A stretch of 64,000 bases of DNA from Naegleria gruberi. Taxonomy: Eukaryota. Of the stretch, positions 268 through 39,500 are shown piece after piece. The notes beneath the pieces are model-generated. The model searched no databases. It was not told where the DNA came from and saw only the letters and a program-made list of their open reading frames with translations. The translations under genes were made by a program, and so were the position numbers. The stretch lies in NCBI GenBank assembly GCA_000004985.1, contig GG738880.1; one strand, given 5' to 3'. Position 1 is the stretch's first letter; each line of letters begins with the position of its first letter.

Positions 268-1007
268 TTATTCTTCTTCTTCCTTCTTTTTACTTTCCAT
301 ACTATTATTAGAATTGGAAAGTGATTCAATCATGTTCATCATTTGTTGTAATGATTTTAAATTACCTTGTCTTGAATTAACAATTGTGCAATATTCTTTA
401 CAATGAGGAAAATTATTCAATAAATTGCAAAACTCTGCACCTCCCAAACAAAATCCAAGACAAATATCCAACACATCAAATTCATCACCAAAGAAATACT
501 TTTGATTTGGCATTCTCTTATTCAATAATTGTTCCAAATATGGAAGATTAGTTTCTCTCATAATGGTAGAAATTTGATTCAATTTCTCTTGTTCTTCATT
601 TGTTAGAGTTAAAAGATGTTTGTTCATCATATTGAGATTATACTTTTGTAAAAGTGATTTGAAATATTGCATTGATGGTGTAATATCTAATTCAAAAGTA
701 GAAGACCACATCATTAATTGAAATCTTTTACCAAATTGAGTTAAATCAGATGATGATTTGAAAGTAAATTTTTTCTCCTTTTCAAAATATTCAATCAAGA
801 AGAGGAGGATAGCATTGGATTCGAATAAAATTTGACTTTCTTTCTCATTCTTTAATTGATATTCTAAACATGGAACTTTTTGAAAAGGATGAGGATTTTT
901 CAATGGATTAACATGTTCACCCAATTCAAATCTGACAAATCTAATTTGAATTGCATTTTCATCACAATTAACAATTTCCTTATTAGTTACACATGANNNN
1001 NNNNNNN
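268..1007 (-). CDS. Glutathione S-transferase-like protein, C-terminal about 245 aa (N-terminus lost in the N-gap); the stop codon is at 268-270
   Basis: The translation contains a GST N-domain-like segment (HPFQKVPCLEYQL...ESNAILLFLIEYFE, compare GST 'ESRAILxYLA') and a GST C-domain-like segment (KYFFGDEFDVLDICLGF). The ORF runs into the N-run at 1008. Confidence 0.5.
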
Positions 1008-2338
1008 NNNNNNNNNNNNNNNNNNNNNNNNNNNNNNNNNNNNNNNNNNNNNNNNNNNNNNNNNNNNNNNNNNNNNNNNNNNNNNNNNNNNNNNNNNNNN
1101 NNNNNNNNNNNNNNNNNNNNNNNNNNNNNNNNNNNNNNNNNNNNNNNNNNNNNNNNNNNNNNNNNNNNNNNNNNNNNNNNNNNNNNNNNNNNNNNNNNNN
1201 NNNNNNNNNNNNNNNNNNNNNNNNNNNNNNNNNNNNNNNNNNNNNNNNNNNNNNNNNNNNNNNNNNNNNNNNNNNNNNNNNNNNNNNNNNNNNNNNNNNN
1301 NNNNNNNNNNNNNNNNNNNNNNNNNNNNNNNNNNNNNNNNNNNNNNNNNNNNNNNNNNNNNNNNNNNNNNNNNNNNNNNNNNNNNNNNNNNNNNNNNNNN
1401 NNNNNNNNNNNNNNNNNNNNNNNNNNNNNNNNNNNNNNNNNNNNNNNNNNNNNNNNNNNNNNNNNNNNNNNNNNNNNNNNNNNNNNNNNNNNNNNNNNNN
1501 NNNNNNNNNNNNNNNNNNNNNNNNNNNNNNNNNNNNNNNNNNNNNNNNNNNNNNNNNNNNNNNNNNNNNNNNNNNNNNNNNNNNNNNNNNNNNNNNNNNN
1601 NNNNNNNNNNNNNNNNNNNNNNNNNNNNNNNNNNNNNNNNNNNNNNNNNNNNNNNNNNNNNNNNNNNNNNNNNNNNNNNNNNNNNNNNNNNNNNNNNNNN
1701 NNNNNNNNNNNNNNNNNNNNNNNNNNNNNNNNNNNNNNNNNNNNNNNNNNNNNNNNNNNNNNNNNNNNNNNNNNNNNNNNNNNNNNNNNNNNNNNNNNNN
1801 NNNNNNNNNNNNNNNNNNNNNNNNNNNNNNNNNNNNNNNNNNNNNNNNNNNNNNNNNNNNNNNNNNNNNNNNNNNNNNNNNNNNNNNNNNNNNNNNNNNN
1901 NNNNNNNNNNNNNNNNNNNNNNNNNNNNNNNNNNNNNNNNNNNNNNNNNNNNNNNNNNNNNNNNNNNNNNNNNNNNNNNNNNNNNNNNNNNNNNNNNNNN
2001 NNNNNNNNNNNNNNNNNNNNNNNNNNNNNNNNNNNNNNNNNNNNNNNNNNNNNNNNNNNNNNNNNNNNNNNNNNNNNNNNNNNNNNNNNNNNNNNNNNNN
2101 NNNNNNNNNNNNNNNNNNNNNNNNNNNNNNNNNNNNNNNNNNNNNNNNNNNNNNNNNNNNNNNNNNNNNNNNNNNNNNNNNNNNNNNNNNNNNNNNNNNN
2201 NNNNNNNNNNNNNNNNNNNNNNNNNNNNNNNNNNNNNNNNNNNNNNNNNNNNNNNNNNNNNNNNNNNNNNNNNNNNNNNNNNNNNNNNNNNNNNNNNNNN
2301 NNNNNNNNNNNNNNNNNNNNNNNNNNNNNNNNNNNNNN
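1008..2338. other. Assembly gap (1331 N)
   Basis: A literal run of n. Confidence 1.
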
Positions 2339-2455
2339 ACAACACAATAACAACAATATAAAAAAAACATCTAAACATCCAAATCATCTCTTGTTGCATC
2401 TCTTGTATTTTAAAAAATAGTGTGTGATACCTATTGATTGTTGAATATACTAAAA

Positions 2456-4422
2456 ATGGCGTCTCAATATAACGATGATATTGATGATGAAAATTATGAA
2501 AAGAAATTAGAAAATGCATTTAATAGTGAAAAATCATTACTTTTATCTAATAGTAATAATAATATTTCCTATTATGATAATAATGTAAATTCTATTAATA
2601 ATAATTATAATGAAATTCCAATTTTAGTTGAAAAGAAAAGATTTTCAAATTTTACAAAAATATTTCAATCAGAATCAATGAAGAGAGTTAGAAGATGGAT
2701 AGCATTTATTGTTGGTTGTTTTATAATGACTGCAAGTGGTACTCCTTATTCATTTTCATCTATTAGTCCTTCTCTAAAAAAGTAAGTTTTTAATTTTATT
2801 TAAATATAATTTATTTTAATTATTATTATTTTTTTTAATTTAATTTTATAATATTATGAAAATAGAACATTTTTATTATCACAAAGTGAAGGTATGTTAC
2901 AATTATATTGTTTTATTAAAATAATAATATTTCTATAAATAGTAAATTTAATAGGAACATCAGCCAATTTAGGATCTAATTTTAGTTTTATATTTTCATT
3001 TGTAAATGATATATTTGGATCTAGAATTAGTAGTTTATTAGCAGGAGCATGTTTATTTTTTTCATATTTTTCCATGTCCTTAATTGTAACTGGTAATTTA
3101 CCATTTATAGATCCATATATAGCATTTTGTTTTTTAATGTTTTTAATGGGAAGTGCATGTGGAGGTGGTTTTATATCTTCAATTTCTACTTCAATGAAGA
3201 ATTTTCCAGAAAGAAATAGAGGTCTAGTTAGTATGTATTTAATTTTATTTAATGTTTATTTATTTTTATTTTTTATTTATTTTAATTTTATATTTAAATA
3301 TATATAGTTGGAGTATTATCATCTTGTTATGGTATTAGTAGTGCAATATATTCAGGTGCATATTTATATATATTTCAACAAGATTTAGAAATTTATTTAA
3401 TATTTTGTGCTGTATTAGGAGGTGTTGTAGTAATGATAATGGGTCCTATATTTTTAGATAGTAAGGCTAATTCACTTACTATAAATAGTAATAATAATAA
3501 GAATAATCAAAATGATAATAATAATCAAATTGAAAATGAAAATGAATCATCTAATGTAGATAACGTAGATAATTTACATGATGTTGATGATAATGTAAAT
3601 AATAATTTAAAAGAAAATAATTTAAAAGAAAATGAAACTTTAAAAGAAAGAATTACCAAAATAGAATTAAAATTAAAAGAAAATGAAGCACCAAATGTCA
3701 ATCCATTTAAAATGTTAATTTCATTAGATTTTTATTTATCATTTTTAATAACATTTTTATTTGCCGGATCAGGAATTGTAATAATTAACAATTTAGGATC
3801 AATAGTCCAATCTTATGGTGGTAAAAATGGAGAACAAAATAATATGGTAATTGTATTTAGTTGTTGTAATTGTATTGGTAGAATTTTATTTGGATTTGTG
3901 AGTGATAAATTATTTAATCCATTAAAAAATTTAACAAGAATTACATTTATAGGAATTACTATATTAATGATGATGATTGGTCAATTTATATTTTCATTTT
4001 TACCATTACCAGGTTTTTATCCATTAATTATTTTTGTAGGATTGAGTTATGGTGGATTTATGGCATTGAATCCAAGTTTTATAAGTGAAAGATTTGGCGC
4101 CAAATATTACGGTTTAAATTCTACAATTCATTCATTATCATCTTCATGTGGATCGTATGCATTTTCAACTGGTTTAGCTGGTCATTTGTATCAATTAAAT
4201 ATTAAGGAACCTAGAATGTTAACATGTCATGGTAGAGAATGTTATGAATTGACTTTTATTATTCTATCCGTATTGAATGGTTTAGCCTTTTTATTAACTT
4301 TGATTTTACATTGGAGAACATTGAATTTGTATCACTTGTTGAAATTTAGAAGACACTTGTTGGAAAAATTAAATTTATTACAACAAGAAGAAAAACAATT
4401 GGAATCAACAATAATAAATTAA
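2456..4422 (+). CDS. Nodulin-like / major-facilitator-superfamily membrane transporter with 4 exons (2456-2781, 2866-2891, 2955-3230, 3308-4422; about 580 aa)
   Basis: The ATG at 2456 is in the context ctaaaaATGgcg. Exon 1 ends at ...SLKK followed by the donor GTAAGT at 2782. A 26-nt exon (KTFLLSQSE) lies between the acceptor tag at 2865 and the donor GTATGT at 2892. The third exon starts after atag at 2954 and ends at the donor GTATGT at 3231. The last exon starts after tatatag at 3307. The splice phases are consistent (2/1/1) and join the track ORFs 2438-2785, 3074-3307 and 3433-4422 into one frame. The protein has multiple hydrophobic transmembrane segments (WIAFIVGCFIMTASG, LIVTGNLPFIDPYIAFCFLMFLMGSACGGG, FIGITILMMMIGQFIFSFLPLPGFYPLIIFVGLSYGGFMAL). 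These resemble the nodulin-like MFS family. Confidence 0.7.
2462..3702. repeat. Copy A of a near-identical segmental duplication of about 1.22 kb (copy B is 39501-40722)
   Basis: Read by eye, the two stretches align base for base over exons 1-3, introns 1-3 and the start of exon 4 of the transporter. The differences are few: a 1-nt indel, a few substitutions, a 9-nt in-frame indel, and small indels in the AT-rich intron 3. Confidence 0.85.
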
Positions 4423-4590
4423 ATTTAATTTATGTACGATACTCATTAAAACATTAGTTATTAATAGTAGTAGTATTTCAACTACGATAGAATTGTGAGA
4501 TTAAAGCCTTGTGTGTTCATAGTTGATAGTTGCACACAGTGCACTCTCCCATCAAAATAAAAAAGCCTTTGAAAAAAAAAATGTCTGAAC

Positions 4591-6131
4591 TTTATCAACA
4601 GGAAGGTTCTATTATTATTGATGATGGATCATCATCTTCGGAATTAAAAAGAAAGAGAACTGATAATGATAGTAATAATAACAATGATACAAACAATGAT
4701 GATAATACTAATGATGATGATAATAATAATTTATTAACAAGTAAATATAAAATAACAAATACTAAAACATTAAATATTATTAAAAATGTATTTAAATTAA
4801 ATAATGTTGAAAGAGATGTAAAAACATTTGATTGTATTGATCCATTTAATAAAAGTAATACAATTAAAGGATGTATTGTTACTAAACATGGTAAATATAA
4901 TGGATCAATGATTATTGATAATATAAATGATATAAATTTAAATGAACCAAATATAGTATATAATATTCCAAATTTAAATTATTTATATCCTAAAAAACAA
5001 AAAAAAGGAACTTGTTTTTTACCTGAAAATTATTTTAAAAATATTAAAAATTTAAATAATTATTGTTTTATGAATAAATGGAATGGTTCAAATATAGTAT
5101 TATATAAATATAGTAATAATGATGGTATTGAATTTATTAGTTGTAAAACTAAAGGTACTCCAATAGTTGAAAATAATCCAAGACATTCAATTTTATTTTA
5201 TGATTTAACTGTAAAAAGTTTACAAAAATTAAATTTATTTAATGAAAATATTTTAAAAAATTCAAATAATATTTATTTTTCACATTTTATTAATGATAAA
5301 AATATTAATTCTCTATCTTGTGAATTATGTGGATATGAAGAACCACATCTTGTTAAATATAATTTTGATATTGAATTAAAACCATTACTATTTTTATATA
5401 ATAATTCTAAAATTAAACCATGTATTTTAGAATCTATTAATTTAACAAATAATATTGAATTAACTAATAATGAATTAAATAAAAATGAATTAAATGAAAT
5501 AATTGAATTAAATAATATTAAAATTAATAAATTAATAGAATATAAAAATAGTTATAAAACATTAATTGAACAAGTTAAAACATTACAAGAATATAATTTT
5601 AAATTAAATGAAAATTTTAGAAATGAAAATAATTTAAAACATGCCTATGAATATAATCATTTTATTACAGAAGGATGTGTTTTATATTTACTTGATAAGG
5701 AAAATTATGTTTGTGATAGAAATTTTATATTTAAAATTAAACCAAATGATATTGAACAAGTTCATTGGGAAAATTTTAATGAAAAACATGAAAAATTAAT
5801 TGATGAAGTTTTATTGAAAATTGAATTGAGAAATTTAGATTTGAATGAATTTAATATTAGAAGAGAATTAGATACAATGGGTGAAAAGGAATGGTCTAAA
5901 TTTTCAACTGATATTTTGAAATATGTCCATAAAAAGAAGGGTATTAATTTATTATTAAATAGATGTAATAATACTAATAATACTAATAATAATACTGAAA
6001 CTGATACCAATACTGATACTACTACTAGTGCTAATAATAATAATAATCAAGAGAATGAAAGTGAAAATACAACAAGTGAAAGAGTGAGTGAGAATGAACA
6101 AGAACCTCAAAAGAAAAAGATTAAACAATAA
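4591..6131 (+). CDS. Hypothetical Asn-rich protein (513 aa) with a basic KRKR motif, an internal coiled-coil-like region and an acidic/Thr-rich tail
   Basis: A long single-exon ORF. The ATG at 4591 follows an A-run (gaaaaaaaaaATGtct). I did not recognise any conserved domain. Confidence 0.55.
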
Positions 6132-6184
6132 AATTTTGGCGCGCAATTTTTTACATTTTTCAAACAATAAAAAATACATCAACA

Positions 6185-6533
6185 ATGTCTGGTAGGTTTT
6201 TCAATATTTGATGAATGGATGAATAATTATCATGGATCATAATACAAAGATAATAAACAAGAAAGTATTTTAGGAGATTTCACCCCTAGTGCTGCTACTC
6301 TTGAACAAACAAAGGAAAGAGTGCACTCTAAAACGAATTATCATGCCCTTCCGGTTAGAGCCTATCTCGATCAAACTGTAGTTCCAATCTTGTTGCAAGG
6401 ATTAGCTTGTGTTGTTAGAGAAAGACCAGAAGATCCAATACAATATTTGGCTTCCTATCTTTTGAGACATAATCCTAACAAGAAGGAAGATGATGAAGAT
6501 GATGAAGAAAGAGAAATTGAAAAGTCTGATTAA
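6185..6533 (+). CDS. dpy30: DPY30-like protein (Dpy-30 motif; subunit of COMPASS/Set1-type H3K4 methyltransferase complexes) with 2 exons (6185-6191 and 6273-6533)
   Basis: The second exon encodes [38 protein letters not shown], a canonical Dpy-30 dimerisation/docking motif. The track ORF start is a GTG, not ATG. The in-frame ATG is the 7-nt first exon ATGTCTG, followed by the donor GTAGGT at 6192. After the acceptor ttttag at 6267-6272 the phase is 1 and the frame is continuous: [36 protein letters not shown]... Confidence 0.65.
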
Positions 6534-6925
6534 GCACCATTAACCTCAACTCCCAATAATTTTGTACCAATATATTACCTCCCATCGAAACCATTAAACT
6601 TCCTAACACTACTAATGTAAAAACAATTCCTGTAGTAATAATAATAACACTCAATATATTAATTTAATATCAATGAAAAATCTCATCATTTAAAACCTTA
6701 TTCTTTGATTCTGGGTGCATGATTAAGGAAAGTAATAGCACTACCTTCAAAGTGTTACTACCCAAGATGATGTGTCGGCAATAATACTGTTGATGGAGGA
6801 TTCCAGTAAAACGGTTAATAGTGATGATCCCTGCTCATTGCAAATGAATCTTTTAAACTACTACAATAAAGTCAGTTGATATGGACGGTTACAGCATGAT
6901 TTTGAAATAATAACGTTCAAAAAAA

Positions 6926-8146
6926 ATGTCTATGGGTCACTATAAGCCTTACTTTGATCAAAAGTTTGATGCTTATCAGGAGTATCGTAAAGAATTTGTA
7001 TTAAAATCCTATCGGAAAACCTCAAAGAAATTACAAACTAGTAGTTATTCAAAATTGTTTAATGATAACTCATTAAGAGGAGTTAGTGCATGGTTAAAAG
7101 AACAAGCCTCTGAGAATGATAGAAAACAATTTCATACTCTATTTAAAAAACTAGGAAGTACTTTTGAAAATTTATCAAATGTAAAGAATCCATATACAGC
7201 AGATAGTGAAGTTGATGCATATTTTCATGCAGCTAGTAATTTTGGACATGGAGTATTAACAGATAAAGCAATTAAATCAATTGCAACATATTTCAAAGAT
7301 AATAAGAATAAGGAAGATATGGATTCTTTTAAAAAGATGATGTCATCAATTACTTCCTATCAAAAACATATCCAACCTCAATCACATGATCATTACGAAT
7401 TTAAAGAAACAACTCCACATGTTGTTGATCAGAAAAAATCAAGACCAATCCAACAAGTTGCATCTGAAAAGTATGCAATGACACATAATAGACCTAAAAC
7501 TGCTCCAAATGTTAGACCTATTATATTTCCTAATGAATTTACTACCACAAATACTTTATCAATTGTTAATCATCATCCAAATACAAACACCAACAATAAT
7601 ACATCATGTTTAACTGCTAGGCCATCAACTTCTCATGTACAAAGAATGCATGATAGAGTTTTTAATTCTAAAGTACCATTCGCAATGGCACCTTCTAATA
7701 TTGTAACAATGCCAACTTCTAAGACTGACTTTACTAGATCTAATTCTAAAGTTCAAGAATATACTAAGGTTCAACCTGCATGGAAGGCAACCACTTGCCC
7801 AACTGCTTCTGGAGGTGTTGTTCAGCCTTCTTTCTCTGTCGATTCATTAGTTCAAAAAGAAAGAAGAGAAGCAAGGAGGAAACTTCCAACATTTTCACAA
7901 ACATCCAAACCATCTTCTCAGCAAGCTAAGAAACAAGACAAGATGCCAACTGTAGCTCTAGGGAAAACAACTTATTATTCCACTTTTCAACCTCAAGCAA
8001 ATATACCTTCAAAACCTTATCATCAACCTCAATTATCTAAACCATTTGGAGATTATGGTACAGTTGACTTTTTGACTGAATATTGTAAGAAATATTCGAG
8101 TAGTAAAAATAAGGAAAACATTTCAACAAATAATAAAGTGAAATGA
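6926..8146 (+). CDS. Hypothetical protein (406 aa)
   Basis: A single long ORF with an ATG in an A-rich context (caaaaaaaATGtct). Its codon usage is less AT-biased than its neighbours. I did not recognise any domain. Confidence 0.55.
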   Translation: MSMGHYKPYFDQKFDAYQEYRKEFVLKSYRKTSKKLQTSSYSKLFNDNSLRGVSAWLKEQASENDRKQFHTLFKKLGSTFENLSNVKNPYTADSEVDAYFHAASNFGHGVLTDKAIKSIATYFKDNKNKEDMDSFKKMMSSITSYQKHIQPQSHDHYEFKETTPHVVDQKKSRPIQQVASEKYAMTHNRPKTAPNVRPIIFPNEFTTTNTLSIVNHHPNTNTNNNTSCLTARPSTSHVQRMHDRVFNSKVPFAMAPSNIVTMPTSKTDFTRSNSKVQEYTKVQPAWKATTCPTASGGVVQPSFSVDSLVQKERREARRKLPTFSQTSKPSSQQAKKQDKMPTVALGKTTYYSTFQPQANIPSKPYHQPQLSKPFGDYGTVDFLTEYCKKYSSSKNKENISTNNKVK

Positions 8147-8150
8147 TAAT

Positions 8151-9934
8151 TTATTTTGATCCAAATTCTTCCATCCACTTTTTATATCTATCAAGCTCAG
8201 CTGTACCCACAGAAGAGCTCACGTTTTTTAATGTCTCCAAAAAGTTGTTCATTGAAATAGGTTGATTCTTCAACTCGTCTTGTTTTGAGATTAACCCAGT
8301 TTTACCAAAGCTTTCAATGGCTTTTCTGAGGACCATCATAGCTGCATCTCTGCAAATTAACTTAATATCAGCAGGACTGTAACCTTCTGTCAATCTAGAT
8401 AACTCATCAACATTAACATCTTCGCCTATAATTAATTTATCCAAATAAAGTTTGAAAATTAACTTTCTTCCTTCATGATCTGGAAGAGGAATGTGAATTC
8501 TCTTTTCTAAACGTCTTCTCAAAGCATCGTCAAGCTCCCAAGGGTGATTGGTAGCTCCCAATACTAGAACCATCTTCTTTTCTTCTGGATTCAGTGCATC
8601 ATTATTAGCACCATCCATTTGTACCAAAAGTTCTGTTTTCACTCTTCTGCTTGCTTCATGTTCACCTTCTGATCTCTTTCCACCTAAGGCATCAATTTCG
8701 TCAATAAATATAGTACTTGGAGCATAGAATCTTGCCATTTCGAATAATAATTTGATTAATTTTTCTGATTCACCTCTCCACTTGGATGTCAAAGCAGAAA
8801 CTGAAACACAAAAGAATGTAGTTTTACATTCAGTGGCTACTGCTTTTGCAAGCATTGTCTTACCTGTACCTGGAGGACCAAAAAGCAAGATACCCTTATA
8901 TGGAGATCTAATGCCATTGAAAAATTCTGGCATCATGATTGGTAAAACAGCTGCTTCCTCAAGCAGATTTTTTGCTGAATCCATTCCAGCAATATCTGTC
9001 CAGTGAGTATTACATTGTTTATCCAAAATTTCCTTCTCAATAATTTCAGCCAAATCCTTATCAGCTGAACACACTGGAACAAATTTTGGTTTTTCTTCTC
9101 CATTTACGATTACAACAGGTGATTCACCTCCTTCCTCTCCAACAGCCATGTTATCCTTATCATCCATCTTTGACTTTTTGTTTGCAACTCCAGGAGTTGG
9201 TCTTTGTTTGTTATCTTTAGAATATTGATTTCCTAGTAACTTTGCGTTTAGCTTCTTATCGACATAATTTGCGACCTAATATTCTTATGACAGAGATGAG
9301 CGTTGATACTTACTCGATTATTAACTTGTTTTGTTGGTGGTTGATTAAGAACCTTCTTATCATTTGATAATCTTTTTGGTTTTGAAACACCTTGAACTGG
9401 AGTAGGAGGAAGCCAAACATCAGGATCATAATTATCTTGAGGAGGTGCTCCACCACCAAGTTGATTTGGTGTTTTAGCTCTTGGAAGTGGTTGGTCATCA
9501 TATGATGTTGTTGGTGAATTATTTGCAACTGTATTCACAACAAATGCAACTCCTCCACCTGCCGATTTCTCTGATGGATCCTCAAAGAACTTTGGAAGTG
9601 GTTTCATTCTTGCTCCACCTCCTCCATTATTATTACTATTATTATTATTACTACTTGATGAAGAATTACCCCCAGAAGAAGAAAATCCATTACTGAATAT
9701 ATTCAATTCGTTTTGTATGTTTTGTATAATTTGATATTCTTGTCTGAGTCTTTGTTTTAATTGAGACCATTGTGTTTTCAAATCCATTGGTAATATTGCT
9801 TCACTAAGGTAAGAATCAATTTGATCCGAGATACCATCATATGTTGCTAATGATACACTATAATTACCGAGAAGAGCATGCTCCCTGGCTAATTTTACAC
9901 TATCTGTTATTCCTTGAAGATGGTGTTTTGGCAT
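8151..9934 (-). CDS. Katanin p60-like microtubule-severing AAA ATPase with 2 exons (9314-9934 and 8151-9255)
   Basis: The N-terminal exon encodes DSVKLAREHALLGNYSVSLATYDGI, which matches the katanin p60 N-terminal MIT-like domain. The C-terminal exon encodes the AAA core: Walker A GILLFGPPGTGKTMLAKAVATECKTTFF, Walker B IFIDEIDAL, and SKWRGESEKL. The exons are joined by a 58-nt intron (donor GTAAGT, acceptor gataag/). Removing it restores the frame: ...KQVNNR|KLNAKLLGNQYSKDNKQRPTPGVANKKSKMDDKDN... Confidence 0.8.
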
Positions 9935-10118
9935 TTTTTTGTAGATTGATTGGCGCCAATATTTCCTTCTTCCTCAAATAAATTCAAAGTTATAATACAA
10001 TCACATGTTGAAACATTTAAAAACAATGAGGAATCAATGATTATAAATACCTGACAACTCGAGATGTTTTATACAACAGTGAATTCATATACATTTATTT
10101 TAATACAGTATGAGACAA

Positions 10119-11322
10119 TTATTCCTTCTTATCATCTTCCATCTTATCTTCTGGTTTCTTTTCTTCTTCTTTTTTGGCTAAAGCATCCAAGAATTTTAAA
10201 AGACCTACGTTAGTATGTTTACGTTAAAAATTGAAATAAATAACTTATTGTGAAATAGTGTATAAACTAACCTCCTCCTCTCATTGGATCTACAACTGAT
10301 GGATCAAGACCAAATTCTCTCATCAATCCTCCTAATTGACCTGTTGCTAAAGCAGTTCCAAAAACATCCAAAGTTTGACGGAATTGTGGACTTCTGATAT
10401 GACTTAATAAGTTTTGAGTTGATTTTTCATTATCACCTTCAGGTAAATTTGAGAATAATTCATCTCTATTATTAATTGATGTATTTCTCTTTAAAATTTC
10501 GGAGAGAGATTCAGATGTGAGAATTTGATCCAATCCAATAGATTGTTTTTGACCTCTTTGTAAACTTTTCATAATTTCTTGTAAGGAGGCTAATAATGTG
10601 TATTGTGTTGTGGTGATTTGTGTTGTGTTTTAACCTACCTGATTCATTTTGAGAACTACCACCTTGGCTTGATGATTGACTTGAAGATTGTGGTTGAGCA
10701 CCTGTTGGATTAATACCTTGAATGATTCTAGTCAATTGATCAAGTTGGACAGCAGATTGAGATGATGTATTTGAAGTTGGAGCAGTAGCAGATTGTGAGC
10801 TAGAAGTTGGAAGCAAATCTTCATCAGCCATATCGTCACCAAGAGGTGGTTCATTAATATATTCATTAATCTTCTTTTCATATTCTGCATCCTTGTCAGC
10901 GCTTGGTTCTTGCATCCAATAGAATGCTTCTCTTCCATTAGTAAACTTTAACAAATACACTCTGCCATCCTTAACTTTATCAACTTTACTGAATGTAACA
11001 TCTCCTGGGAAGAGAATGAAATCCTAATTAATTAATTTCAATGAAACTTAATCCAAAATAAGATTACTATAATTGCATACCTCAATAACTTTATCACTTC
11101 TATCTCTCCATTGGAAATGTACAAGTGGATCTTCGTCACTTCCAGCAACTAGAACAATTTTACCTTTTCTATTATCGGCTTTAACAACAGAACCCTCCTT
11201 GGTCAACTTTCCGGCTCTAAATTCAACTAATGGACGCTAGAGTTTCATGTATTAATTAAATCAAGAAGAAACAATAACACATACAGGTCCTTGTGGTGTA
11301 TTAAATAAATTGATCGAAGACA
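10119..11322 (-). CDS. adrm1: Proteasomal ubiquitin receptor Rpn13/ADRM1 with 5 exons
   Basis: Spliced translation begins MSSINLFNTPQGP. After the first intron it continues RPLVEFRAGKLTKEGSVVKADNRKGKIVLVAGSDEDPLVHFQWRDRSDKVIE. After the second intron it continues DFILFPGDVTFSKVDKVKDGRVYLLKFTNGREAFYWMQEPSADKDAEYEKKINEYINEPP. This is the Pru domain, including the FYWMQEP signature. The C-terminus has the DEUBAD-like segment SPQFRQTLDVFGTALATGQLGGLMREFGL and ends ...KMEDDKKE*. The intron donors are GTATGT, GTATGC, GTAGGT and GTTAGT. Confidence 0.75.
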
Positions 11323-11632
11323 TTTTTTTAAAGAGTTATTTTTAAAATTGTATTTCCCTCCAAGATCAAAGCCTTTTTTTGTTTTTTATTATTTCTTCAT
11401 AGATGAATTATTCAGTTTGAAATCTTATTAAGAAAGACCAAACATTCACAATTTTTGTTTTCAACAAAACTTGGAATTCTTCACAATAAATTATTGAGAT
11501 GAAAGAAGTGTAGGAAATTCCGAAGACTCAATTTCGGAATGAGAGTTCCTTCATCTTCATCATCACCCTACCAATAATATATTTATTATTAATTATTTTA
11601 TTAAAAAAAATCATCCACACCACCATCAAAAG
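11323..11632. promoter_or_regulatory. Divergent (bidirectional) promoter region between the Rpn13/ADRM1 (-) and SGT1 (+) starts
   Basis: About 310 bp of AT-rich non-coding DNA separate the two head-to-head ATGs. It contains T- and A-runs (ctttttttgtttttt, ttaaaaaaaatc). I assigned no specific motif. Confidence 0.3.
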
Positions 11633-12781
11633 ATGCCATCATTTGAAAGTGCCTCTGATCTCTATCAAGAAGGAAATGATTTATTCGTCGATGAAGAATA
11701 TGAAAGTGCCTTGACTAAATATTCTCAGGCTATTGAAATGGAAAAGAAGGCTGAATATTTTGAAAAACGATCAGCCTGTTATAATCAACTCGGAAATCAC
11801 AAGGCTTCATTGGAGGATGCGGAACAAGCAATTTCACTCTCACCAAATTCTTTCAATGGTCACTTGAGAAAGGGTGTTGCTTTATTCGAATTGGAACAAT
11901 ATGAACAATCTAAACAAGCATTGGAAAAGGCATTGACAATCAAGCCTGAAGACTCAAAGGCTAAAACTTGGTTGAGAAAAGCTAACGCTGAGCTTAAATC
12001 ATCCACTCCATCTTCCTCTACACCTACACCAACCACTACTACTACTCATACTCCTGTAACAACTACCACTACTACTCCACCAACTCAATCATCATCTACT
12101 TTATCAGTCGTCCCACACAAAAAGAAGATTAAATGGAATTTCTTCCAAATGGACGAATATGCAGTATTGAGTGTTATAGGATTGCAAGCAACTAAGAAGG
12201 AAGATAGACATGTTACTATCAGTGAAAATGAAGTTACAATTTCTATTACAATTCCACCACAAGAAGGAGTTCCAGCTCAAATGGGAGATGAAGATTTTAC
12301 CAAATTTGAAAGAACATTTAAATTATTTGACAGTATTAATCCATCAGAATCAAAGATTGAACAATTACCTTCAAAATGTGAAATCAAGTTGAAGAAGGTT
12401 CATCCAACTATTGAATGGCCTTCTTTTGAAGAAGTTGGAAATGTTAACAAATTTGATCCTCAATTCCAATCCTCAAGCGTTTATACTACTCAATTCGATC
12501 CAAAGAAATATCCAACCTCAAAGAAGACCGACTTTGACTCCCTTGACAAGATTGCCAAGAAGGAAGAAGAAGAAGAAAAACCAGAAGGTGATGCTGCTTT
12601 ACAAAAACTTTTCCAACAAATTTACTCGCAAGGTAACGAAGAAACCAGAAGAGCCATGATGAAGAGTTTCCAAGAAAGTGGTGGTACTGTATTATCCACC
12701 AATTGGAATGAGGTTGGTTCTAAGAAAGTTAAGGGTGAAGCCCCTCAAGGAATGGAGATGAAGTATTGGAATAAGGAATAA
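11633..12781 (+). CDS. sgt1: SGT1 homolog (HSP90 co-chaperone / SCF assembly factor) with TPR, CS and SGS domains
   Basis: The N-terminus has TPR-like helices ([43 protein letters not shown]). The middle is a Thr-rich linker followed by a CS-like segment ([19 protein letters not shown]...). The C-terminal SGS domain reads [44 protein letters not shown]. The gene is a single exon. Confidence 0.8.
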
Positions 12782-12953
12782 ATGATGTACTTGATCAATC
12801 TCATGAATAAACCTTAACTAAGCAAGATGTAAAAACCTCCCATGTTCTCTATAAACAAACTGCCGAGCCAAGTTCAATAGACGTTGTAAATTGCAAGTGG
12901 TGATTGAAATTTTTAACTTTCCAAAAAAATGAGAACAGGTATTCCATTAACCG

Positions 12954-14204
12954 ATGCAACAATCACAGCCAAAATTAATTTGCCACCTACCAACACTCTT
13001 CAACGTTCATATCATTGGTTCAGATTTTACATATCGCCACCAAATAAGAGTTGAATATCATGGTAAATATACGCCAATTAAAACCAAAGTTTTAGGAAAA
13101 ATTAAGGAAATTAGAAACTCTAAGAAAGTCAGTAATAAGGTTAAGATAGTACCATTGAAAATTCAAAATTCAAAACCATCATATAAGAACGGTTTTTCCA
13201 TCCTAATAGATAAGAGTATAGAAGAAAACATTGATACCTGTGAATTGTATAGTATTTTATTAAGTTGGTTAAGGGAGCAATTTAACTCCTTTGCTAAAAT
13301 TGAAGAGGTCCACTCCGTTCCCAATACCAAATCTCTCTTTGATTCTCATCAAAAATTTACTTTAATCCAAATTGAAAACCAATTCAAGATGGATTTAAAA
13401 GTTGATCTTGATTGTAGTTTCACAATTTCAAACTCATTCTCTGAGGATCATTGGAAAGAGGTAGCAGATGAGTATGATTCTCTCACCTCAACCTCCAATT
13501 CAGATGTTGAAGAAGATTCTTCTCCTAAACATAGCTACAATATCAATCAAGGAAAACGTTTACCTGGATGGATTCCAACACATGAATCCTCAAGCAATAA
13601 GCTACAGGTGCAATATAAGTCTGATGAAAGCTCAGATCATTCAAGTAATTGTATCCAGTTGGAAGAAAGAAATAATAGTTGTATTAAAGTACATAAATCA
13701 GAGAAAGACCCTGGAATCAAACGCTCAGAAAAATCAAAGGAATCAAAAATTGAAGTCACAAGAAAGGGATATGAACATGATAAAACAATTGAGAATATAA
13801 GAGGTAGACTTGAGAAAGAAATAGACGAATATGTACTCGTACTTAAGAATATGAGAGATGAACATGAGAAAGAAAGAGATGAATATGAGAAAACAATTAA
13901 GAACATGAGTGATAAACATGAGAAAACAATTAAGAATATGAGAGATAGACAACTTAATGAAATAGATGAATATGAGAAAACAATTAAGAATATGAGTGAT
14001 AAATATGAGAAAACAATTAAGAATATGAGAGATAGACAACTTAATGAAATAGATGAATATGAGAAAACAATTAAGAATATGAGAGATGAATATCAGAAAA
14101 TAATTAAGAATATGAGAGAAAGACAATATAAAGAAATAGATGAATATGAGAAAAAACTTAAGAATATGAGAGAAAGACAAATGAAAGAAATAGATGAATA
14201 TTGA
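12954..14204 (+). CDS. Hypothetical protein with a C-terminal array of EYEKTIKNM(R/S)D repeats (coiled-coil-like)
   Basis: A continuous ORF. The start is uncertain. The ATG at 12954 is in frame. An alternative ATG at 12928 has a better A-rich context and could be used if an 89-nt intron (12938-13026) is removed. Confidence 0.5.
   Translation: MQQSQPKLICHLPTLFNVHIIGSDFTYRHQIRVEYHGKYTPIKTKVLGKIKEIRNSKKVSNKVKIVPLKIQNSKPSYKNGFSILIDKSIEENIDTCELYSILLSWLREQFNSFAKIEEVHSVPNTKSLFDSHQKFTLIQIENQFKMDLKVDLDCSFTISNSFSEDHWKEVADEYDSLTSTSNSDVEEDSSPKHSYNINQGKRLPGWIPTHESSSNKLQVQYKSDESSDHSSNCIQLEERNNSCIKVHKSEKDPGIKRSEKSKESKIEVTRKGYEHDKTIENIRGRLEKEIDEYVLVLKNMRDEHEKERDEYEKTIKNMSDKHEKTIKNMRDRQLNEIDEYEKTIKNMSDKYEKTIKNMRDRQLNEIDEYEKTIKNMRDEYQKIIKNMRERQYKEIDEYEKKLKNMRERQMKEIDEY
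13850..14200 (+). repeat. Coding tandem repeat with an 87-nt (29 aa) unit, about 2 perfect copies plus degenerate flanking copies and an 11-aa sub-period
   Basis: The string gatagacaacttaatgaaatagatgaatatgagaaaacaattaagaatatgag recurs at 13944 and at 14031, 87 nt apart. The protein reads ...EYEKTIKNMSDK(H/Y)EKTIKNMRDRQLNEID... repeated. Confidence 0.6.
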
Positions 14205-14561
14205 GAAAAGCTTTAAGAAAAAGATGAAAAAAAGAAAGAAAATGAAAAAAACATGTAAATACTTCAATTTTTGATATTTGATTGGCTTTATTTGGAATCT
14301 CGCCAATGCAAGTTAAAATAAAACAACTCTATCTGCTTATATTTATAATTTTATTAGTGCAAACGACAAGGTAATTAATTTATCAAAAATTTGAAATGCC
14401 ATATAATTGACCAGATAAAATAGATTTATGGAACTGCCTTATCTGAATATCACTAACATATCCCAAAGTAAATACTCGAAGACCGTCTTTAATTTCACTG
14501 CTTTCCCTGAATGCAACAATTAATATCTTTAAATTATTCTTTGAGATCCAAATCTTTGCAT

Positions 14562-16049
14562 TTATTTGAAATTTGGCTTTGGAATCTCACTTGGATGAGG
14601 AGAATTTGACCAAGAACCACCTGCAAACTTTTTATGTTTTTGTTCTAAATTCTCAGGCTCATCTGGGGTGAAATTGACAGATCCATCATTCATTAAAATT
14701 GACAATAACTCTTTTTCAGTCAAGGAGGTTGATGAACTAGATGAAACCATTTGTGAAATTGGTGGTAATTGTTCAATTACTGGTTCAGAAGTGGTAACAT
14801 TTGGAAGAGAACCATTATTCATTGAATAATTATAACTAGCAGGTTGTTCTTGATAATACTGTGGTAAAATATTATTTTCAAGGTATGAAACATCATAGGA
14901 TTGTTGAGGAAAATGAGTTGGAACTTTTTGTGGAGGAATAGTTGAAACTGTAGGAGGTTTTACAGGTGTTGAATTGATTAATTGGAGTGATTGACTGAGA
15001 AGAGCGCTTGGTTTTAAAAGTCCATTTGGTGATGGTGCAGAATTAGGACTAGAATTATTTGCTGAGGTTATAATAGAAGCTGATCTATTGATACCAAGTA
15101 ATGAAGGTGTTAATAATTTCTGATTGGTGTTTGGTTTTGGATAAACTGTTGGAGAGGAAGGAGAGTTGAAAGCTAAAGGACTATGCATAACTAATACTTG
15201 AGGATATCCAGCAGTATGATTAATAGTGGTTACTGGAACTGATTGTTGTTGATAATTTGGTTGTTGTGATGATGATGAAATAAATTCTTGATTAGAGGAT
15301 TGGTTATTGTTGATATTACTAGGAGGTTGATTCTCATGATTTCTAATGAGATGATTGGTATTTCTTGAAGATACATTTTGTTTTTGTACATTGATAGGAA
15401 CCATAACCTTCTTCTTTTGCTTCTTTTTCTTTGCCTTCTTATCTTCTTCTTCTCGTTTATCTTCATCACTTTGGAGTTTGTTTTCATCACTGCTACTACT
15501 GTTATCATTTGATTTTGTCATGTTATTCTTGTGTTGGTAAGGAATGACCATTCTTTCATAGTTTGCAAAGTGATCCCTGCTTGATGTTTTTGTTTTCCCA
15601 AAACCATTTCCATTGGCATTACTGTTACCATTTGAAGAATTATTCTTATTATTTTCAACGTGTTGAGAGAAGAATTGTGGTTGATTACTATTGTTATTAG
15701 CTTGTTGTTGTTGTTGTTGCTTGATTGGAGAATGAAAGGTTAACTTTTCTTGAATACCATCAAAAGAAAGATCCTTGTATTCAAAGTATCCATCTTTAAA
15801 TTCTCTTACTCTAATTGATTTCTCCCCTTTTGGTACAAAAACTCGTTCTTGTTGTTGTGCTTGTTCATCAGTTAAGAATAAATCTTCATTCACTGAATAG
15901 CCTCCGGTTGGTGTTTCTCCATTGGCATCTTCATTTAAAAAGAAGGGTATTAAAGGTCTACCAAATTCACCTGCCTTGTTTCTTGTTGTTGTACTACGTT
16001 GTTGTTGTTGTTGTTGTTGTTGATCATAGGTTGGTTCTGTTTCCATCAT
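14562..16049 (-). CDS. Hypothetical Gln/Asn/Ser-rich protein (495 aa), with polyQ tracts encoded by CAA runs
   Basis: A single ORF. The ATG at 16049 starts MMETEPTYDQQQQQQQQ. A conserved-looking block RVFVPKGEKSIRVREFKDGYFEYKDLSFDGIQEKLTF is followed by lysine-rich KKAKKKKQKKK and long low-complexity regions. Confidence 0.55.
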   Translation of the reverse strand: MMETEPTYDQQQQQQQQRSTTTRNKAGEFGRPLIPFFLNEDANGETPTGGYSVNEDLFLTDEQAQQQERVFVPKGEKSIRVREFKDGYFEYKDLSFDGIQEKLTFHSPIKQQQQQQANNNSNQPQFFSQHVENNKNNSSNGNSNANGNGFGKTKTSSRDHFANYERMVIPYQHKNNMTKSNDNSSSSDENKLQSDEDKREEEDKKAKKKKQKKKVMVPINVQKQNVSSRNTNHLIRNHENQPPSNINNNQSSNQEFISSSSQQPNYQQQSVPVTTINHTAGYPQVLVMHSPLAFNSPSSPTVYPKPNTNQKLLTPSLLGINRSASIITSANNSSPNSAPSPNGLLKPSALLSQSLQLINSTPVKPPTVSTIPPQKVPTHFPQQSYDVSYLENNILPQYYQEQPASYNYSMNNGSLPNVTTSEPVIEQLPPISQMVSSSSSTSLTEKELLSILMNDGSVNFTPDEPENLEQKHKKFAGGSWSNSPHPSEIPKPNFK

Positions 16050-16653
16050 GATGTGGTGTTATTATTGTTTTTAAAAATCGTAAAATGTATTTAATGATGT
16101 ATTATATGAAATGTTCAGATTGTGCGCACTTATTGATTGAAAAGTATTGAAGTGATACTGATGATGATGATGTTGTTGTTGTTGGATAGAATAATGCTAG
16201 AGTTAAATTTCTTGATGGTGAATTATCCATTCGACACGGTGGTGTAAAATTTTTGTATTTTTTTAAAGGATATTTTTAGTTTTTTAATTTGGGAATTGTA
16301 TTTTTAGAAATAAAAAAAACAATTGTAATCTTTACAATATTATTCAACCAAAATAATATAATATTATATAAACTTTACCATTTAACAATACTACTCAGTA
16401 TAGATACACTGTAGTACGCATTCTTCTTATTATTTTTATCTAATTTATAAAAACTGTAAATCTTTACAATTAGCTCTAAATGTGAACTTTTCAATTTTCA
16501 CATCCATTAATGAACATGGATAATAACTCATCCATGATTACATGGGCGACACGGTAAATAAATGGAACATTTTAACAACTCATCCAACAACTAGTTTTTC
16601 AAATCAAACAACAATATCAAACTCTAAAAAAAAACAATTAAAATCAAACAATA

Positions 16654-16884
16654 ATGGCAAAGTGTTCAGGTTGTGGCGATTCTTGTGTTAAACTCCATAA
16701 GATTTCATGTAAAGATGGATGTGTTGTGTCAGTGTGTCACATGTGTCATGCAACTCCTCAAGGTTAGTTGTAAAAAAAGTTTTTGAATGATATTCGAATA
16801 TTGTATAATATTACATTGTTATTAGCTCGTATTGGTACTAAATGTTGTTCTTGTGGAAAGATTGCTTCATGGAAGAAATTGTAA
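16654..16884 (+). CDS. Small spliced cysteine-rich protein (about 55 aa, 12 Cys) with 2 exons (16654-16764 and ~16830-16884; boundary coordinates counted by hand, ±1-2 nt)
   Basis: The ATG is in the context aaacaataATGgca. Exon 1 encodes MAKCSGCGDSCVKLHKISCKDGCVVSVCHMCHATPQ. It ends at the donor G|GTTAGT, and the unspliced read-through hits a stop immediately. A 65-nt AT-rich intron ends in ttattag. Exon 2, in phase 1, encodes ARIGTKCCSCGKIASWKKL*. The ORF is too small for the ORF track. This model rests on inference. Confidence 0.35.
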
Positions 16885-17338
16885 ATCAAATATTAGCATT
16901 TAAATATATTATAGAATGGGCTGTAATTATTTATCCAGCTCACAAATAGCTTCCTCTCTGTACATATATAGAGAGATTTGTATCATAATAAATTTTACAT
17001 TTGGTGTAGTTGATGAAATATTGATTTGTCAATGTTTAACATTTTTCAAAGGATTACAAAACATCTCTACAATAGATCTGTATCATTAATAAAAAGAGCA
17101 TTGGTGGTTATCAATTTTATCATTGTCATTGTGTTTTAATTATATTGAGCTGTAGATGTATAATATTTTTAATCAAGTTTTAAAGATAATATAAAATTGA
17201 TTGAATAAATCAAATAAATTAATTAAAAAAAATCCATCAACAACAATAACGAACAAGAACACTTTTTCTGTAGTGCTTTTTTCTTCCGAATTTTAATTTT
17301 TTTGAATATATCATCAATAACAATACATCATCATCAAT

Positions 17339-17737
17339 ATGACCCTTTCATTAGTAGTTGCAGGCGTTGCCCTTGGATCTGGAATTGTTGTTTTAAGAGC
17401 ATCAGTTAGAGCTATGGCTAGAGCCAAATCAGCATCAGCAATTAATAGTACAACAATGAAAAAAACAGGATTTACATTGAATGCTGATTTACTCTCGAAA
17501 CCAATTTACGGAAGAAACTTTATTGAAGGATCATTTAACCCAGAAATGTCGAAGAAAGAAGCTTTGGATGTTTTAGGCTTTGGAAAGACAGTTAAACATG
17601 TTACAGAGGAAGATGTAAAGAAACGTCACAGAAAATTAATGCTTTTAAATCACCCTGATAATGGAGGTTCTGCTTATATTTCATCTAAAATTAATGAATC
17701 TAAGGATTATCTGTTAGGTAGATACGGAAGAGATTAA
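17339..17737 (+). CDS. Mitochondrial import inner-membrane translocase subunit TIM14 / DNAJC19 (Pam18-type J-protein)
   Basis: The N-terminus has a transmembrane helix (LSLVVAGVALGSGIVVL). The C-terminal J-domain carries the HPD motif: KKEALDVLGFGKTVKHVTEEDVKKRHRKLMLLNHPDNGGSAYISSKINESKDYL. It aligns closely with human DNAJC19 (REAALILGVS...[33 protein letters not shown]). Confidence 0.8.
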   Translation: MTLSLVVAGVALGSGIVVLRASVRAMARAKSASAINSTTMKKTGFTLNADLLSKPIYGRNFIEGSFNPEMSKKEALDVLGFGKTVKHVTEEDVKKRHRKLMLLNHPDNGGSAYISSKINESKDYLLGRYGRD

Positions 17738-17870
17738 ACAATTTTAAATATATATATATATTAATTTTTCAATATCCTATTTATTAACATGTTACCAAGT
17801 ATTATTATTATTAGTTTATTAATCGATACAATATAACTAGTATCACTTTGATTACATATCAAAAGTTTAT

Positions 17871-20866: not shown

Positions 20867-21048
20867 TTTTTTTATTGACTCGACAATTTGAAAATGCAAT
20901 GGGACTTGAATGCTGATTCAATTTCGGAAGTGAACCGATGAAGAGGAAGCACAAAATATCCTTCTTCCGAATATCAATGGTTGTTAACTTTGAAATTCTT
21001 GCGATTGAGGATGCTCTAATGTGTTGTTTTTGAAATAATAAATTAATT

Positions 21049-25003: not shown

Positions 25004-25206
25004 TTTTTTTATTAATTTTTTGTATATGGAATTGGCGGGAAAAGTGTTTTAATCCTTCTGCTCAGCCACATGTTTGATAATTCTGTTAAATGTGCTGTCC
25101 ATGATTGGTTTGAGTGAGTCTATATCAATTGCTGTTGTAATATGTATTTTGATATCTTTCCTAGTAGTTTGCTCCATAAATTTAGAAACAATAAAATCAA
25201 TATTTC

Positions 25207-38934: not shown

Positions 38935-39138
38935 GTTAAATAAATTCATCATGATCGTTCCAGTAAACAATGTCAAACATCTATTGAGAAATGATATACA
39001 GAGTTGGTATTAGCTGAAAGTGGTTTTAACTGCAGAAATTAAGAAGATCCTCAACTTCAAAACAATTCACAGTCTATGCAATTTGGCATATCCTAATATT
39101 CAAAGATTTTGCAAAATTGGTAAATAATTTATTAATTA

Positions 39139-39450: not shown

Positions 39451-39500
39451 NNNNNNNNNNNNNNNNNNNNNNNNNNNNNNNNNNNNNNNNNNNNNNNNNN
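39451..39500. other. Assembly gap (50 N)
   Basis: A run of n. Confidence 1.

What the first reader, a model, noticed from the sequence alone, without database searches (positions are those of the whole stretch)
2462..3702. Near-identical 1.2-kb duplicated transporter segment, both copies abutting assembly gaps; copy B carries a frameshift
Bases 39501-40722 repeat 2462-3702, covering exons 1-3 and introns of the MFS transporter. Nucleotide identity is very high, with only a handful of differences. One is a 1-nt insertion in exon 1 of copy B that creates a premature stop. Another is a 9-nt in-frame indel in the Asn/Asp-rich loop. Small indels also sit in the AT-rich intron 3. The flanks differ. 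Copy A is preceded by a gap and a GST-like gene. Copy B is preceded by a 50-N gap and the FTHFS 3' end, and followed by the 23-kb gap. There are three explanations. It may be a very recent segmental or tandem duplication, with copy B decaying to a pseudogene. It may be two haplotypes of one locus placed in tandem by the assembler (a haplotig artefact). Or it may be a mis-scaffolded contig end.
Basis: seen in the sequence. Interest (0 to 1): 0.6.

Follow-up and report, generated by a model that had tools for sequence, protein, structure and literature searches.

The report
Redundant contig mimicking a gene duplication
A 1.2-kb near-copy of the start of a Naegleria gruberi transporter gene sits alone between two assembly gaps in the middle of an unrelated housekeeping gene, and is most likely a leftover allelic or unmerged contig of the draft assembly, not a real duplicated pseudogene.

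Summary
The repeat is real in the sequence. Bases 39501-40722 match 2462-3686 (not 3702), with 1215 identical bases, a 678-nt exact block and only 8 differences. The window is the Naegleria gruberi NEG-M Sanger draft. Copy A is the 5' part of an intact 580-aa nodulin-like MFS transporter (XP_002675011).

- The exon indel is 6 nt plus one substitution, not 9 nt.
- The repeat covers exons 1-3 and the first third of exon 4.
- Copy B lacks the start codon.

New finding: copy B is a 1,222-bp island between a 50-N gap and an N run of at least 23,278. It lies inside the annotated formate-tetrahydrofolate ligase gene (XP_002675089). Only residues 431-533 of that gene lie left of B, and residues 1-430 lie beyond the N run. 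The model lacks about 103 residues at exactly this break. No FTHFS-to-transporter junction is assembled.

Copy B is wholly contained in the 37.1-kb contig that precedes it. It fits the "duplicated contained contig" class of false duplications in heterozygous diploid assemblies. My best reading (about 0.65) is a redundant allelic or unmerged-read contig emitted after the contig it belongs on. A real collapsed ~37-kb tandem duplication (about 0.22) is not excluded. The pseudogene call rests on one base in a tiny contig. Interest is low.

The parts
268..996 (-). 3' part of a weakly GST-like gene, cut at its 5' end by the gap
   Evidence: ORF translation. Pfam GST_N has E 7e-4, below the curated cut-off. 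PDB GST chains have E ~8e-3.
997..2338 (.). Assembly gap, 1342 N
   Evidence: N-run listing.
2339..39450 (.). Contig C1, 37,112 bp without internal N. It holds copy A at its left end and the FTHFS last exon at its right end.
   Evidence: N-run listing. Pfam scan shows ordinary nuclear genes along it: AAA ATPase, SGT1-like, kinesin, G-alpha, WD40, DOCK-type DHR-2.
2456..4422 (+). Intact nodulin-like MFS transporter gene, 4 exons (2456-2781, 2866-2891, 2955-3230, 3308-4422), 580 aa. It is N. gruberi XP_002675011 / NAEGRDRAFT_69687.
   Evidence: The spliced translation is 100% identical over 580 aa to P0001. Pfam hits: MFS_1 1.7e-28, Nodulin-like 1.4e-21, NFD4_C 1.1e-10.
2462..3686 (+). Copy A of the repeat (1225 nt)
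   Evidence: Global alignment. The repeat finder families D2, D3, D4, D5.
39139..39450 (-). Last coding exon of formate-tetrahydrofolate ligase, residues 431-533 of XP_002675089 plus one further Lys codon at the contig end
   Evidence: tblastn gives 100% identity for residues 431-533 at 39447-39139. Pfam FTHFS E 6e-33, profile positions 453-556 of 556.
39451..39500 (.). Gap of exactly 50 N between the FTHFS exon and copy B
   Evidence: N-run listing and sequence.
39501..40722 (+). Copy B: an isolated 1,222-bp contig. It corresponds to transporter codon 3 through the first ~373 nt of exon 4, has no start codon, and shows 8 differences from copy A.
   Evidence: No gene model on it appears among N. 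gruberi proteins (one search lists only P0001 and a 52%-identical paralogue).
39624..39638 (+). Extra G (39624 or 39625) and the resulting premature TAA at 39636-39638
40271..40349 (+). Intron 3 of copy B, with four A/T-run indels relative to copy A. The GT and AG ends are kept.
40554..40621 (+). Exon-4 differences in the Asn/Asp-rich loop: A>T (Asn>Ile), T>C (silent), and a net 6-nt in-frame deletion with one base change (HDVDD>QDD)
40723..64000 (.). N run of at least 23,278 that reaches the window end. It is inside the scaffold, not padding, because FTHFS residues 1-430 must lie to its right on the same 416,450-bp scaffold.

Best explanation
Copy B is most likely not a second genomic locus. 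It is a small redundant contig of the same transporter locus as copy A. It would be built from a few Sanger reads that failed to merge with the main contig, either because they come from the other allele of the heterozygous diploid strain NEG-M, or because they are lower-quality reads, or both.

Its true position overlaps the left end of the 37.1-kb contig C1. A scaffold has to be written as a line, so the contained contig was emitted after C1 with a minimal 50-N spacer. The next contig, which holds the 5' part of FTHFS, was then pushed away by a large spurious gap. That gap is predicted to total about 36 kb, the distance from the end of copy A to the end of C1.

The result looks like a direct duplication 37 kb apart and splits the FTHFS gene model.

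Shown:
- the near-identity and containment of copy B in C1;
- its position inside FTHFS;
- the ~103 residues missing from the FTHFS model;
- the absence of any junction sequence.

Inferred:
- the read composition of copy B;
- the way the scaffold was written as a line;
- the allelic origin of the differences.

The frameshifting G is either an error in a low-coverage contig or a heterozygous variant. It is not evidence for a decaying paralogue.
For: 1. Copy B is 1,222 bp, 98.8% identical, and wholly contained in a nearby larger contig of the same scaffold. These are the properties of the 'duplicated contained contigs' that Kelley & Salzberg 2010 showed to be haplotype-caused false duplications. 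Those are mostly under 2 kb with median identity 98.1%, and one example was displaced by ~61 kb (PMC2864568).

2. The source is the N. gruberi NEG-M Sanger draft (PMC9928731 Table 1). Naegleria is described as mainly a heterozygous diploid, with heterozygosity reported for N. gruberi (PMC9928731).

3. Copy B lies inside the only annotated N. gruberi FTHFS gene.
   - Residues 431-533 are at 39447-39139.
   - Residues 1-430 are absent from the readable window, so they lie to the right on the same scaffold.
   - The model lacks 102-103 residues relative to the N. fowleri and Willaertia orthologues, exactly at this break.
   - A close relative has a contiguous ~2.1-kb FTHFS gene (L001).
   - About 310-410 bp is therefore truly missing here, not 24.5 kb or more containing a transporter fragment.

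4. No FTHFS-to-transporter junction is assembled. C1 reads as FTHFS to its last base, and copy B matches copy A from its first base.

5. The differences look like alleles: A/T-run length changes in an intron, an in-frame 2-codon change in a low-complexity loop, and two point changes.

6. Nothing else of a supposed second 37-kb unit is assembled in the following 23 kb or more.

7. No near-identical second transporter protein exists in the N. gruberi protein set.
Against: - Copy B begins only 123 nt from the start of C1 and is placed exactly at the end of C1, and C1 is bounded by gaps on both sides. A collapsed tandem duplication with C1 as its unit predicts this directly. The artefact reading needs extra assumptions to explain it: locally high heterozygosity causing both the left gap and the split contig, or linkage through ~37-kb fosmid mates.
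- A gap inside an ordinary coding exon of FTHFS has no obvious cause under the artefact reading. A repeat fork would explain it.
- If many short-insert mate pairs link C1 to the FTHFS 5' contig, a careful scaffolder should not have written a gap of 23 kb or more there.
- I could not inspect reads, mate pairs, depth, or the scaffold beyond the window.
- How the assembler writes contigs into a line, and the meaning of a 50-N gap, are inferred and not documented here.
Confidence: 0.65

Rival explanations
1. There is a real, very recent tandem duplication of about 37 kb, possibly present on only one homologue. The unit runs from just upstream of, or inside, the transporter 5' end to a breakpoint inside FTHFS. 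The assembler collapsed both units into contig C1. Only the first 1.2 kb of unit 2 (copy B) stayed separate because it carries a cluster of differences, and the rest of unit 2 became the large gap. Copy B would then be a promoter-less, frameshifted 5' copy next to a truncated FTHFS 3' fragment, and the intact FTHFS would lie at the end of unit 2.
For: - The offset between the copies (37,039-37,042 bp) equals the length of C1.
- Copy B starts 123 nt from the start of C1 and follows the end of C1 after a minimal gap.
- Both ends of C1 are contig breaks, one of them inside an ordinary coding exon. Repeat forks would produce this.
- The following gap is at least 23 kb, compatible with the ~36 kb this model predicts.
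- The in-frame 6-nt change is unlikely to be a base-calling error, so copy B is a genuinely distinct sequence.
Against: - No junction sequence is present at either contig end, although junction reads are expected at ~8x Sanger coverage.
- About 103 codons of unique FTHFS sequence are missing anyway, so an extra coverage hole is still needed.
- Copy B has 8 differences in 1.2 kb. If the whole unit diverged at that rate, many more unit-2 contigs should populate the gap, and there are none in 23 kb or more.
- No second copy of the transporter is found in the N. gruberi protein set.
- Recent large tandem duplications are rarer a priori than redundant small contigs in draft assemblies of heterozygous diploids (PMC2864568).
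Confidence: 0.22
2. Copy B is a redundant contig made only of error-rich reads of the same allele, for example low-quality fosmid-end reads. It was attached to this position by a few long-insert or mis-paired mate links. All differences, including the frameshift, would be sequencing errors.
For: - Six of the 8 differences are indels, four of them in A/T runs within 47 nt. That is typical of poor read tails.
- The contig is only 1.2 kb.
- The 37-kb displacement is about a fosmid insert length (inference from general knowledge of Sanger-era libraries).
Against: - The net 6-nt in-frame deletion with a neighbouring base change is not a typical base-calling error.
- Perfect blocks of 678, 205 and 101 nt lie between the clusters of differences, so the reads are not generally poor.
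Confidence: 0.08
3. Copy B is a dispersed partial paralogue, a true pseudogene fragment, inserted into or next to FTHFS by some other rearrangement that is not a tandem duplication.
For: The frameshift and the missing start codon.
Against: - It retains all introns and is 98.8% identical.
- The missing start codon is simply hidden by the gap.
- FTHFS is the only annotated copy in N. gruberi and is conserved in relatives, so a disrupting insertion is unlikely.
- The exact match of the offset to the contig length would be a coincidence.
Confidence: 0.05

Closest known systems
Duplicated contained contigs: false segmental duplications caused by haplotype differences in whole-genome shotgun assemblies (Kelley & Salzberg 2010, Genome Biol 11:R28, PMC2864568)
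   Same: - A small contig (under 2 kb) aligns over its whole length at ~98-99% to a nearby larger contig of the same scaffold.
- It is flanked by gaps.
- The source genome is a heterozygous diploid.
- The differences are SNPs and small indels.
- It creates the illusion of a recent duplication and disturbs gene annotation.
   Different: - The assembler here is a different one, and a protist genome rather than a vertebrate one.
- The displacement (37 kb) equals the length of the parent contig rather than being 'adjacent'.
- The defining mate-pair test could not be run.
Collapsed recent tandem segmental duplication in a draft assembly
   Same: - The repeat is direct, with its period equal to the length of the contig between the copies.
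- There are contig breaks at both ends of the presumed unit.
- A large gap follows the start of the second unit.
   Different: - No junction sequence is assembled.
- No other unit-2 sequence is assembled.
- Depth is unknown.
Haplotigs or allelic contigs as handled by tools such as Purge Haplotigs (PMC6267036)
   Same: There is a redundant representation of one locus from the second haplotype.
   Different: Those tools deal with long-read primary contigs identified by half read depth. Here the object is a 1.2-kb Sanger-era contig inside a scaffold, and depth is unavailable.

Membership tests
Duplicated contained contig (haplotype or unmerged-read false duplication) | The contig aligns over its entire length, at high but imperfect identity, to a nearby larger contig in the same scaffold | tested here: met
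   All 1222 nt align to 2462-3686 inside contig 2339-39450, with 1215 identical positions (98.8% of columns).
Duplicated contained contig (haplotype or unmerged-read false duplication) | The source genome is diploid and heterozygous, or the assembly is a draft with unmerged reads | not tested
   Literature only. The N. gruberi NEG-M assembly is a Sanger draft, and Naegleria is described as mainly a heterozygous diploid, with heterozygosity reported in N. gruberi (PMC9928731). The primary genome paper could not be read.
Duplicated contained contig (haplotype or unmerged-read false duplication) | [quoted passage not shown] | not testable with these tools
   No reads or mate-pair data are available. 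N. gruberi records are absent from the contig look-up.
Duplicated contained contig (haplotype or unmerged-read false duplication) | The present placement is biologically implausible | tested here: met
   The contig sits inside the single annotated FTHFS gene, on the opposite strand, where ~103 conserved residues are missing from the model. A close relative has a contiguous gene.
Real tandem segmental duplication | A novel junction sequence joins the end of unit 1 to the start of unit 2 | tested here: inconclusive
   No junction is present in either contig end. It could be hidden in the 50-N gap.
Real tandem segmental duplication | Doubled read depth over the unit, and second copies of the other genes of the unit | not testable with these tools
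   There are no reads. The 23,278 or more positions after copy B are all N.
Pseudogene | A disabling mutation in a sequence that occupies its own locus | tested here: inconclusive
   A 1-nt insertion gives a stop at 39636-39638. A separate locus is not established, and the base is unverified in a 1.2-kb contig.
Nodulin-like / MFS transporter (the gene that is repeated) | Nodulin-like N-terminal domain plus MFS fold | tested here: met
   Pfam MFS_1 1.7e-28, Nodulin-like 1.4e-21 and NFD4_C 1.1e-10, all above the curated cut-offs.
Formate-tetrahydrofolate ligase (the flanking gene) | FTHFS domain | tested here: met
   Pfam PF01268 E 6e-33 over profile positions 453-556 of 556, and 100% identity to residues 431-533 of the N. 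gruberi FTHFS.

The most novel reading that the evidence does not exclude
The N. gruberi NEG-M genome, or one of its homologues, carries a very young ~37-kb tandem duplication spanning about a dozen genes, from the nodulin-like transporter to a breakpoint inside FTHFS. The draft assembly collapsed it. Copy B is the start of the second unit and is already frameshifted. It would be a structural variant that arose in a long-cultured, clonally propagated laboratory strain.
Probability: 0.22. Interest if true: 0.25.

Novelty: not a real feature. Interest (0 to 1): 0.08.

Why it matters
The value is mainly practical, for annotation.
- If copy B is an artefact, the scaffold is too long by roughly 37 kb.
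- The FTHFS model XP_002675089 is wrongly spliced across copy B and lacks ~103 residues.
- Any count of 'recent duplicates' or 'pseudogenes' in the N. gruberi draft would be inflated by such contigs.
- If the copy A/B differences are allelic, they give a small sample of heterozygosity in NEG-M, including an in-frame indel in a low-complexity loop.

Nothing here bears on an open biological question. Even the real-duplication reading would be an ordinary structural variant.

Tried and rejected
1. Exact-protein contig look-ups, tried in the hope of scaffold coordinates or independent assemblies of the locus. I tried the transporter, its exon-1 and exon-4 ORFs, the DOCK-like ORF and the FTHFS model.

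2. A search with the 104-aa FTHFS C-terminal fragment did not return the N. gruberi protein, although that protein contains the identical 103 residues. I reached it by a detour: a metagenomic relative (P0007, locus L001) gave an N-terminal query, and the third search found P0023.

3. A metagenome scan for relatives of the transporter found nothing.

4. The primary N. gruberi genome paper and a review were not in the held library. Heterozygosity is therefore cited only second-hand, and no heterozygosity rate is given.

5. I considered that the trailing N run was padding at a scaffold end. I rejected this because FTHFS residues 1-430 must lie to the right on the same scaffold.

6. I considered that copy B belongs in the 1342-N gap upstream of copy A. 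I rejected this because it matches sequence to the right of that gap, not the gap's missing content.

7. I considered cDNA contamination. I rejected this because copy B retains all three introns.

8. I tried to infer gene order or gap content from accession numbers. The UniProt accessions are 10 apart and the GenBank ones 78 apart, so the result is inconsistent and I did not use it.

Full report
**What the window is.** The readable part is bases 1-40722. There are three N runs: 997-2338 (1342 N), 39451-39500 (exactly 50 N) and 40723-64000 (23,278 N, reaching the window end).

The spliced product of the gene at 2456-4422 has four exons, 2456-2781, 2866-2891, 2955-3230 and 3308-4422. It is 100% identical over 580 aa to a Naegleria gruberi predicted protein: XP_002675011 / EFC42267 / NAEGRDRAFT_69687, on a scaffold of 416,450 bp. 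It carries Nodulin-like, MFS_1 and NFD4_C domains above Pfam's cut-offs. The rest of the contig carries ordinary nuclear genes: an AAA ATPase, an SGT1-like protein, a kinesin, a G-alpha protein, a WD40 protein and a DOCK-type protein.

**The observation.** A global alignment shows that 39501-40722 (1222 nt, copy B) matches 2462-3686 (1225 nt, copy A). There are 1215 identical positions, and the repeat finder reports the same blocks. The longest exact shared block is 678 nt, against 15-19 nt in 20 Markov-1 simulations. Chance is excluded.

There are eight differences:
- an extra G at 39624 in exon 1;
- four A/T-run indels in intron 3 (+TAA, +T, -T, -T);
- two substitutions in exon 4, A>T (Asn>Ile) and a silent T>C;
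- a net 6-nt in-frame change, CAT GAT GTT GAT GAT to CAA GAT GAT (HDVDD to QDD).

The extra G shifts the frame and gives a TAA at 39636-39638. With that G removed, copy B translates cleanly through all four exon pieces.

- the match stops at 3686, not 3702;
- the coding indel is 6 nt, not 9;
- the repeat includes about a third of exon 4;
- copy B starts at codon 3, so its start codon is hidden in the gap;
- copy A does not abut a gap, because its contig begins at 2339 and runs unbroken to 39450.

**The key new fact is where copy B sits.** The 312 nt left of the 50-N gap, on the minus strand, encode the C-terminus of formate-tetrahydrofolate ligase (Pfam FTHFS E 6e-33). The annotated N. gruberi FTHFS is XP_002675089, 533 aa, on the same 416,450-bp scaffold. 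It matches the window only with residues 431-533, at 39447-39139 and 100% identity.

Residues 1-430 are nowhere in the readable window. The gene is on the minus strand, so they must lie to the right, beyond copy B and the long N run. This has two consequences.
- The trailing N run is inside the scaffold and is not padding.
- The annotated FTHFS 'intron' contains the 50-N gap, copy B and at least 23,278 N.

Aligned with the N. fowleri and Willaertia magna orthologues, the N. gruberi model lacks 102-103 residues exactly at the 430/431 joint. A close metagenomic relative (L001; 81% DNA identity in the last exon) has a compact ~2.1-kb FTHFS gene, with a short intron just before the 'EIYGAAG' exon.

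The sequence truly missing between the two FTHFS contigs should therefore be about 310-410 bp. The scaffold instead shows 24.5 kb or more, with a transporter fragment on the other strand in the middle. Only one FTHFS protein from N. gruberi appears among the best hits.

**Interpretation.** Copy B is a 1.2-kb island that is wholly contained, at 98.8% identity, in the 37,112-bp contig C1 (2339-39450) that precedes it. No FTHFS-to-transporter junction is assembled. C1 reads as FTHFS to its last base, and copy B matches copy A from its first base.

This is the profile of the 'duplicated contained contigs' described by Kelley & Salzberg (PMC2864568). In those cases two slightly divergent haplotypes of one locus are assembled twice and both are placed in the scaffold. 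Most such contigs are under 2 kb, their median identity is 98.1%, and one documented example was displaced by about 61 kb.

The source genome is the Sanger draft of N. gruberi NEG-M (PMC9928731 Table 1). That paper describes Naegleria as mainly a heterozygous diploid and cites heterozygosity in N. gruberi.

The kinds of difference suit alleles: intron A/T-run length changes, an in-frame 2-codon change in an Asn/Asp-rich low-complexity loop, and two point changes. The single frameshifting base could be a base-calling error in a contig built from very few reads (inference from its 1.2-kb size), or it could be a heterozygous variant.

My proposed mechanism is inferred, not shown. Copy B's true layout position overlaps the left end of C1. 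When the scaffold was written as a line, the contained contig was emitted after C1 with a minimal spacer. The distance to the next contig was then written as a gap of about 36 kb.

**The serious rival** is a real ~37-kb tandem duplication, possibly heterozygous, collapsed into C1.

In its favour:
- the copy offset (37,039-37,042 bp) equals the length of C1;
- copy B starts 123 nt from the start of C1 and follows the end of C1;
- both ends of C1 are contig breaks, one of them in plain coding sequence, as repeat forks would produce.

Against it:
- no junction is assembled, despite the expected coverage;
- ~103 codons of unique FTHFS are missing in any case;
- nothing else of a second unit is assembled in 23 kb or more, although copy B differs from copy A at 8 sites per 1.2 kb;
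- no near-identical second transporter protein exists in the protein set.

Both models predict a gap of about 36 kb after copy B, so the visible 23,278 or more N does not discriminate. Redundant small contigs are more common than young 37-kb tandem duplications in drafts of heterozygous diploids. Weighing that prior against the positional coincidence, I put about 0.65 on the allelic-artefact reading and about 0.22 on a real duplication. The remainder goes to minor variants: pure sequencing error (about 0.08) and another kind of rearrangement (about 0.05).

**What could not be done.** No reads, mate pairs, depth or long reads are available. N. gruberi is absent from the contig look-up, and a metagenome scan found nothing. 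The primary genome paper is not held, so I quote no heterozygosity rate. The decisive tests are listed under next steps.

**Verdict.** The duplicate is really in the sequence, but it is most likely not a feature of the genome. It is an assembly redundancy that also damages the FTHFS gene model. The 'decaying pseudogene' reading rests on one unverified base. Interest is low. Even the most novel surviving reading, a young tandem duplication in a laboratory strain, would be an ordinary structural variant.

Noticed in passing
window 39139-39450 (-) and beyond 40722: The annotated N. gruberi formate-tetrahydrofolate ligase (XP_002675089, 533 aa) is spliced across assembly gaps and copy B. It lacks 102-103 conserved residues relative to the N. 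fowleri and Willaertia orthologues. This is an annotation defect caused by the assembly.
   Followed up: yes
window 13702-14244 (+), inside ORF 12954-14204: A coding tandem repeat with 33/54/87-nt spacing encodes reiterated 'EYEKTIKNMRD...' units in a protein with no Pfam match.
   Followed up: no
window 25539-27857 (-): A 772-aa ORF combines a G-protein alpha domain (E 2e-56) with a C-terminal F-box-like motif (E 2e-6), an unusual pairing. The listed ORF starts at GTG, so the true start and exon structure were not worked out.
   Followed up: no
L001 (ENA ERZ27315067, k141_638816, 7231 bp), FTHFS at 1110-3203: An environmental metagenome contig carries an intron-containing FTHFS that is 86% identical in protein and 81% identical in DNA to the N. 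gruberi last exon. It is presumably from a related heterolobosean. Its neighbours (SelR upstream, palmitoyl thioesterase downstream) differ from the N. gruberi context, where a DOCK-like gene lies downstream.
   Followed up: partly
tool behaviour: The word-indexed protein search with the 104-aa FTHFS C-terminal fragment did not return the N. gruberi protein, although that protein contains the identical 103 residues. It was found only with an N-terminal query from a relative. Absence from that search is therefore not evidence of absence.
   Followed up: partly
window 268-996 (-): The 'GST-like' gene left of the first gap is only weakly GST-like: Pfam GST_N is below its cut-off and PDB GST chains have E ~8e-3. 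Its 5' end is lost in the 1342-N gap.
   Followed up: partly
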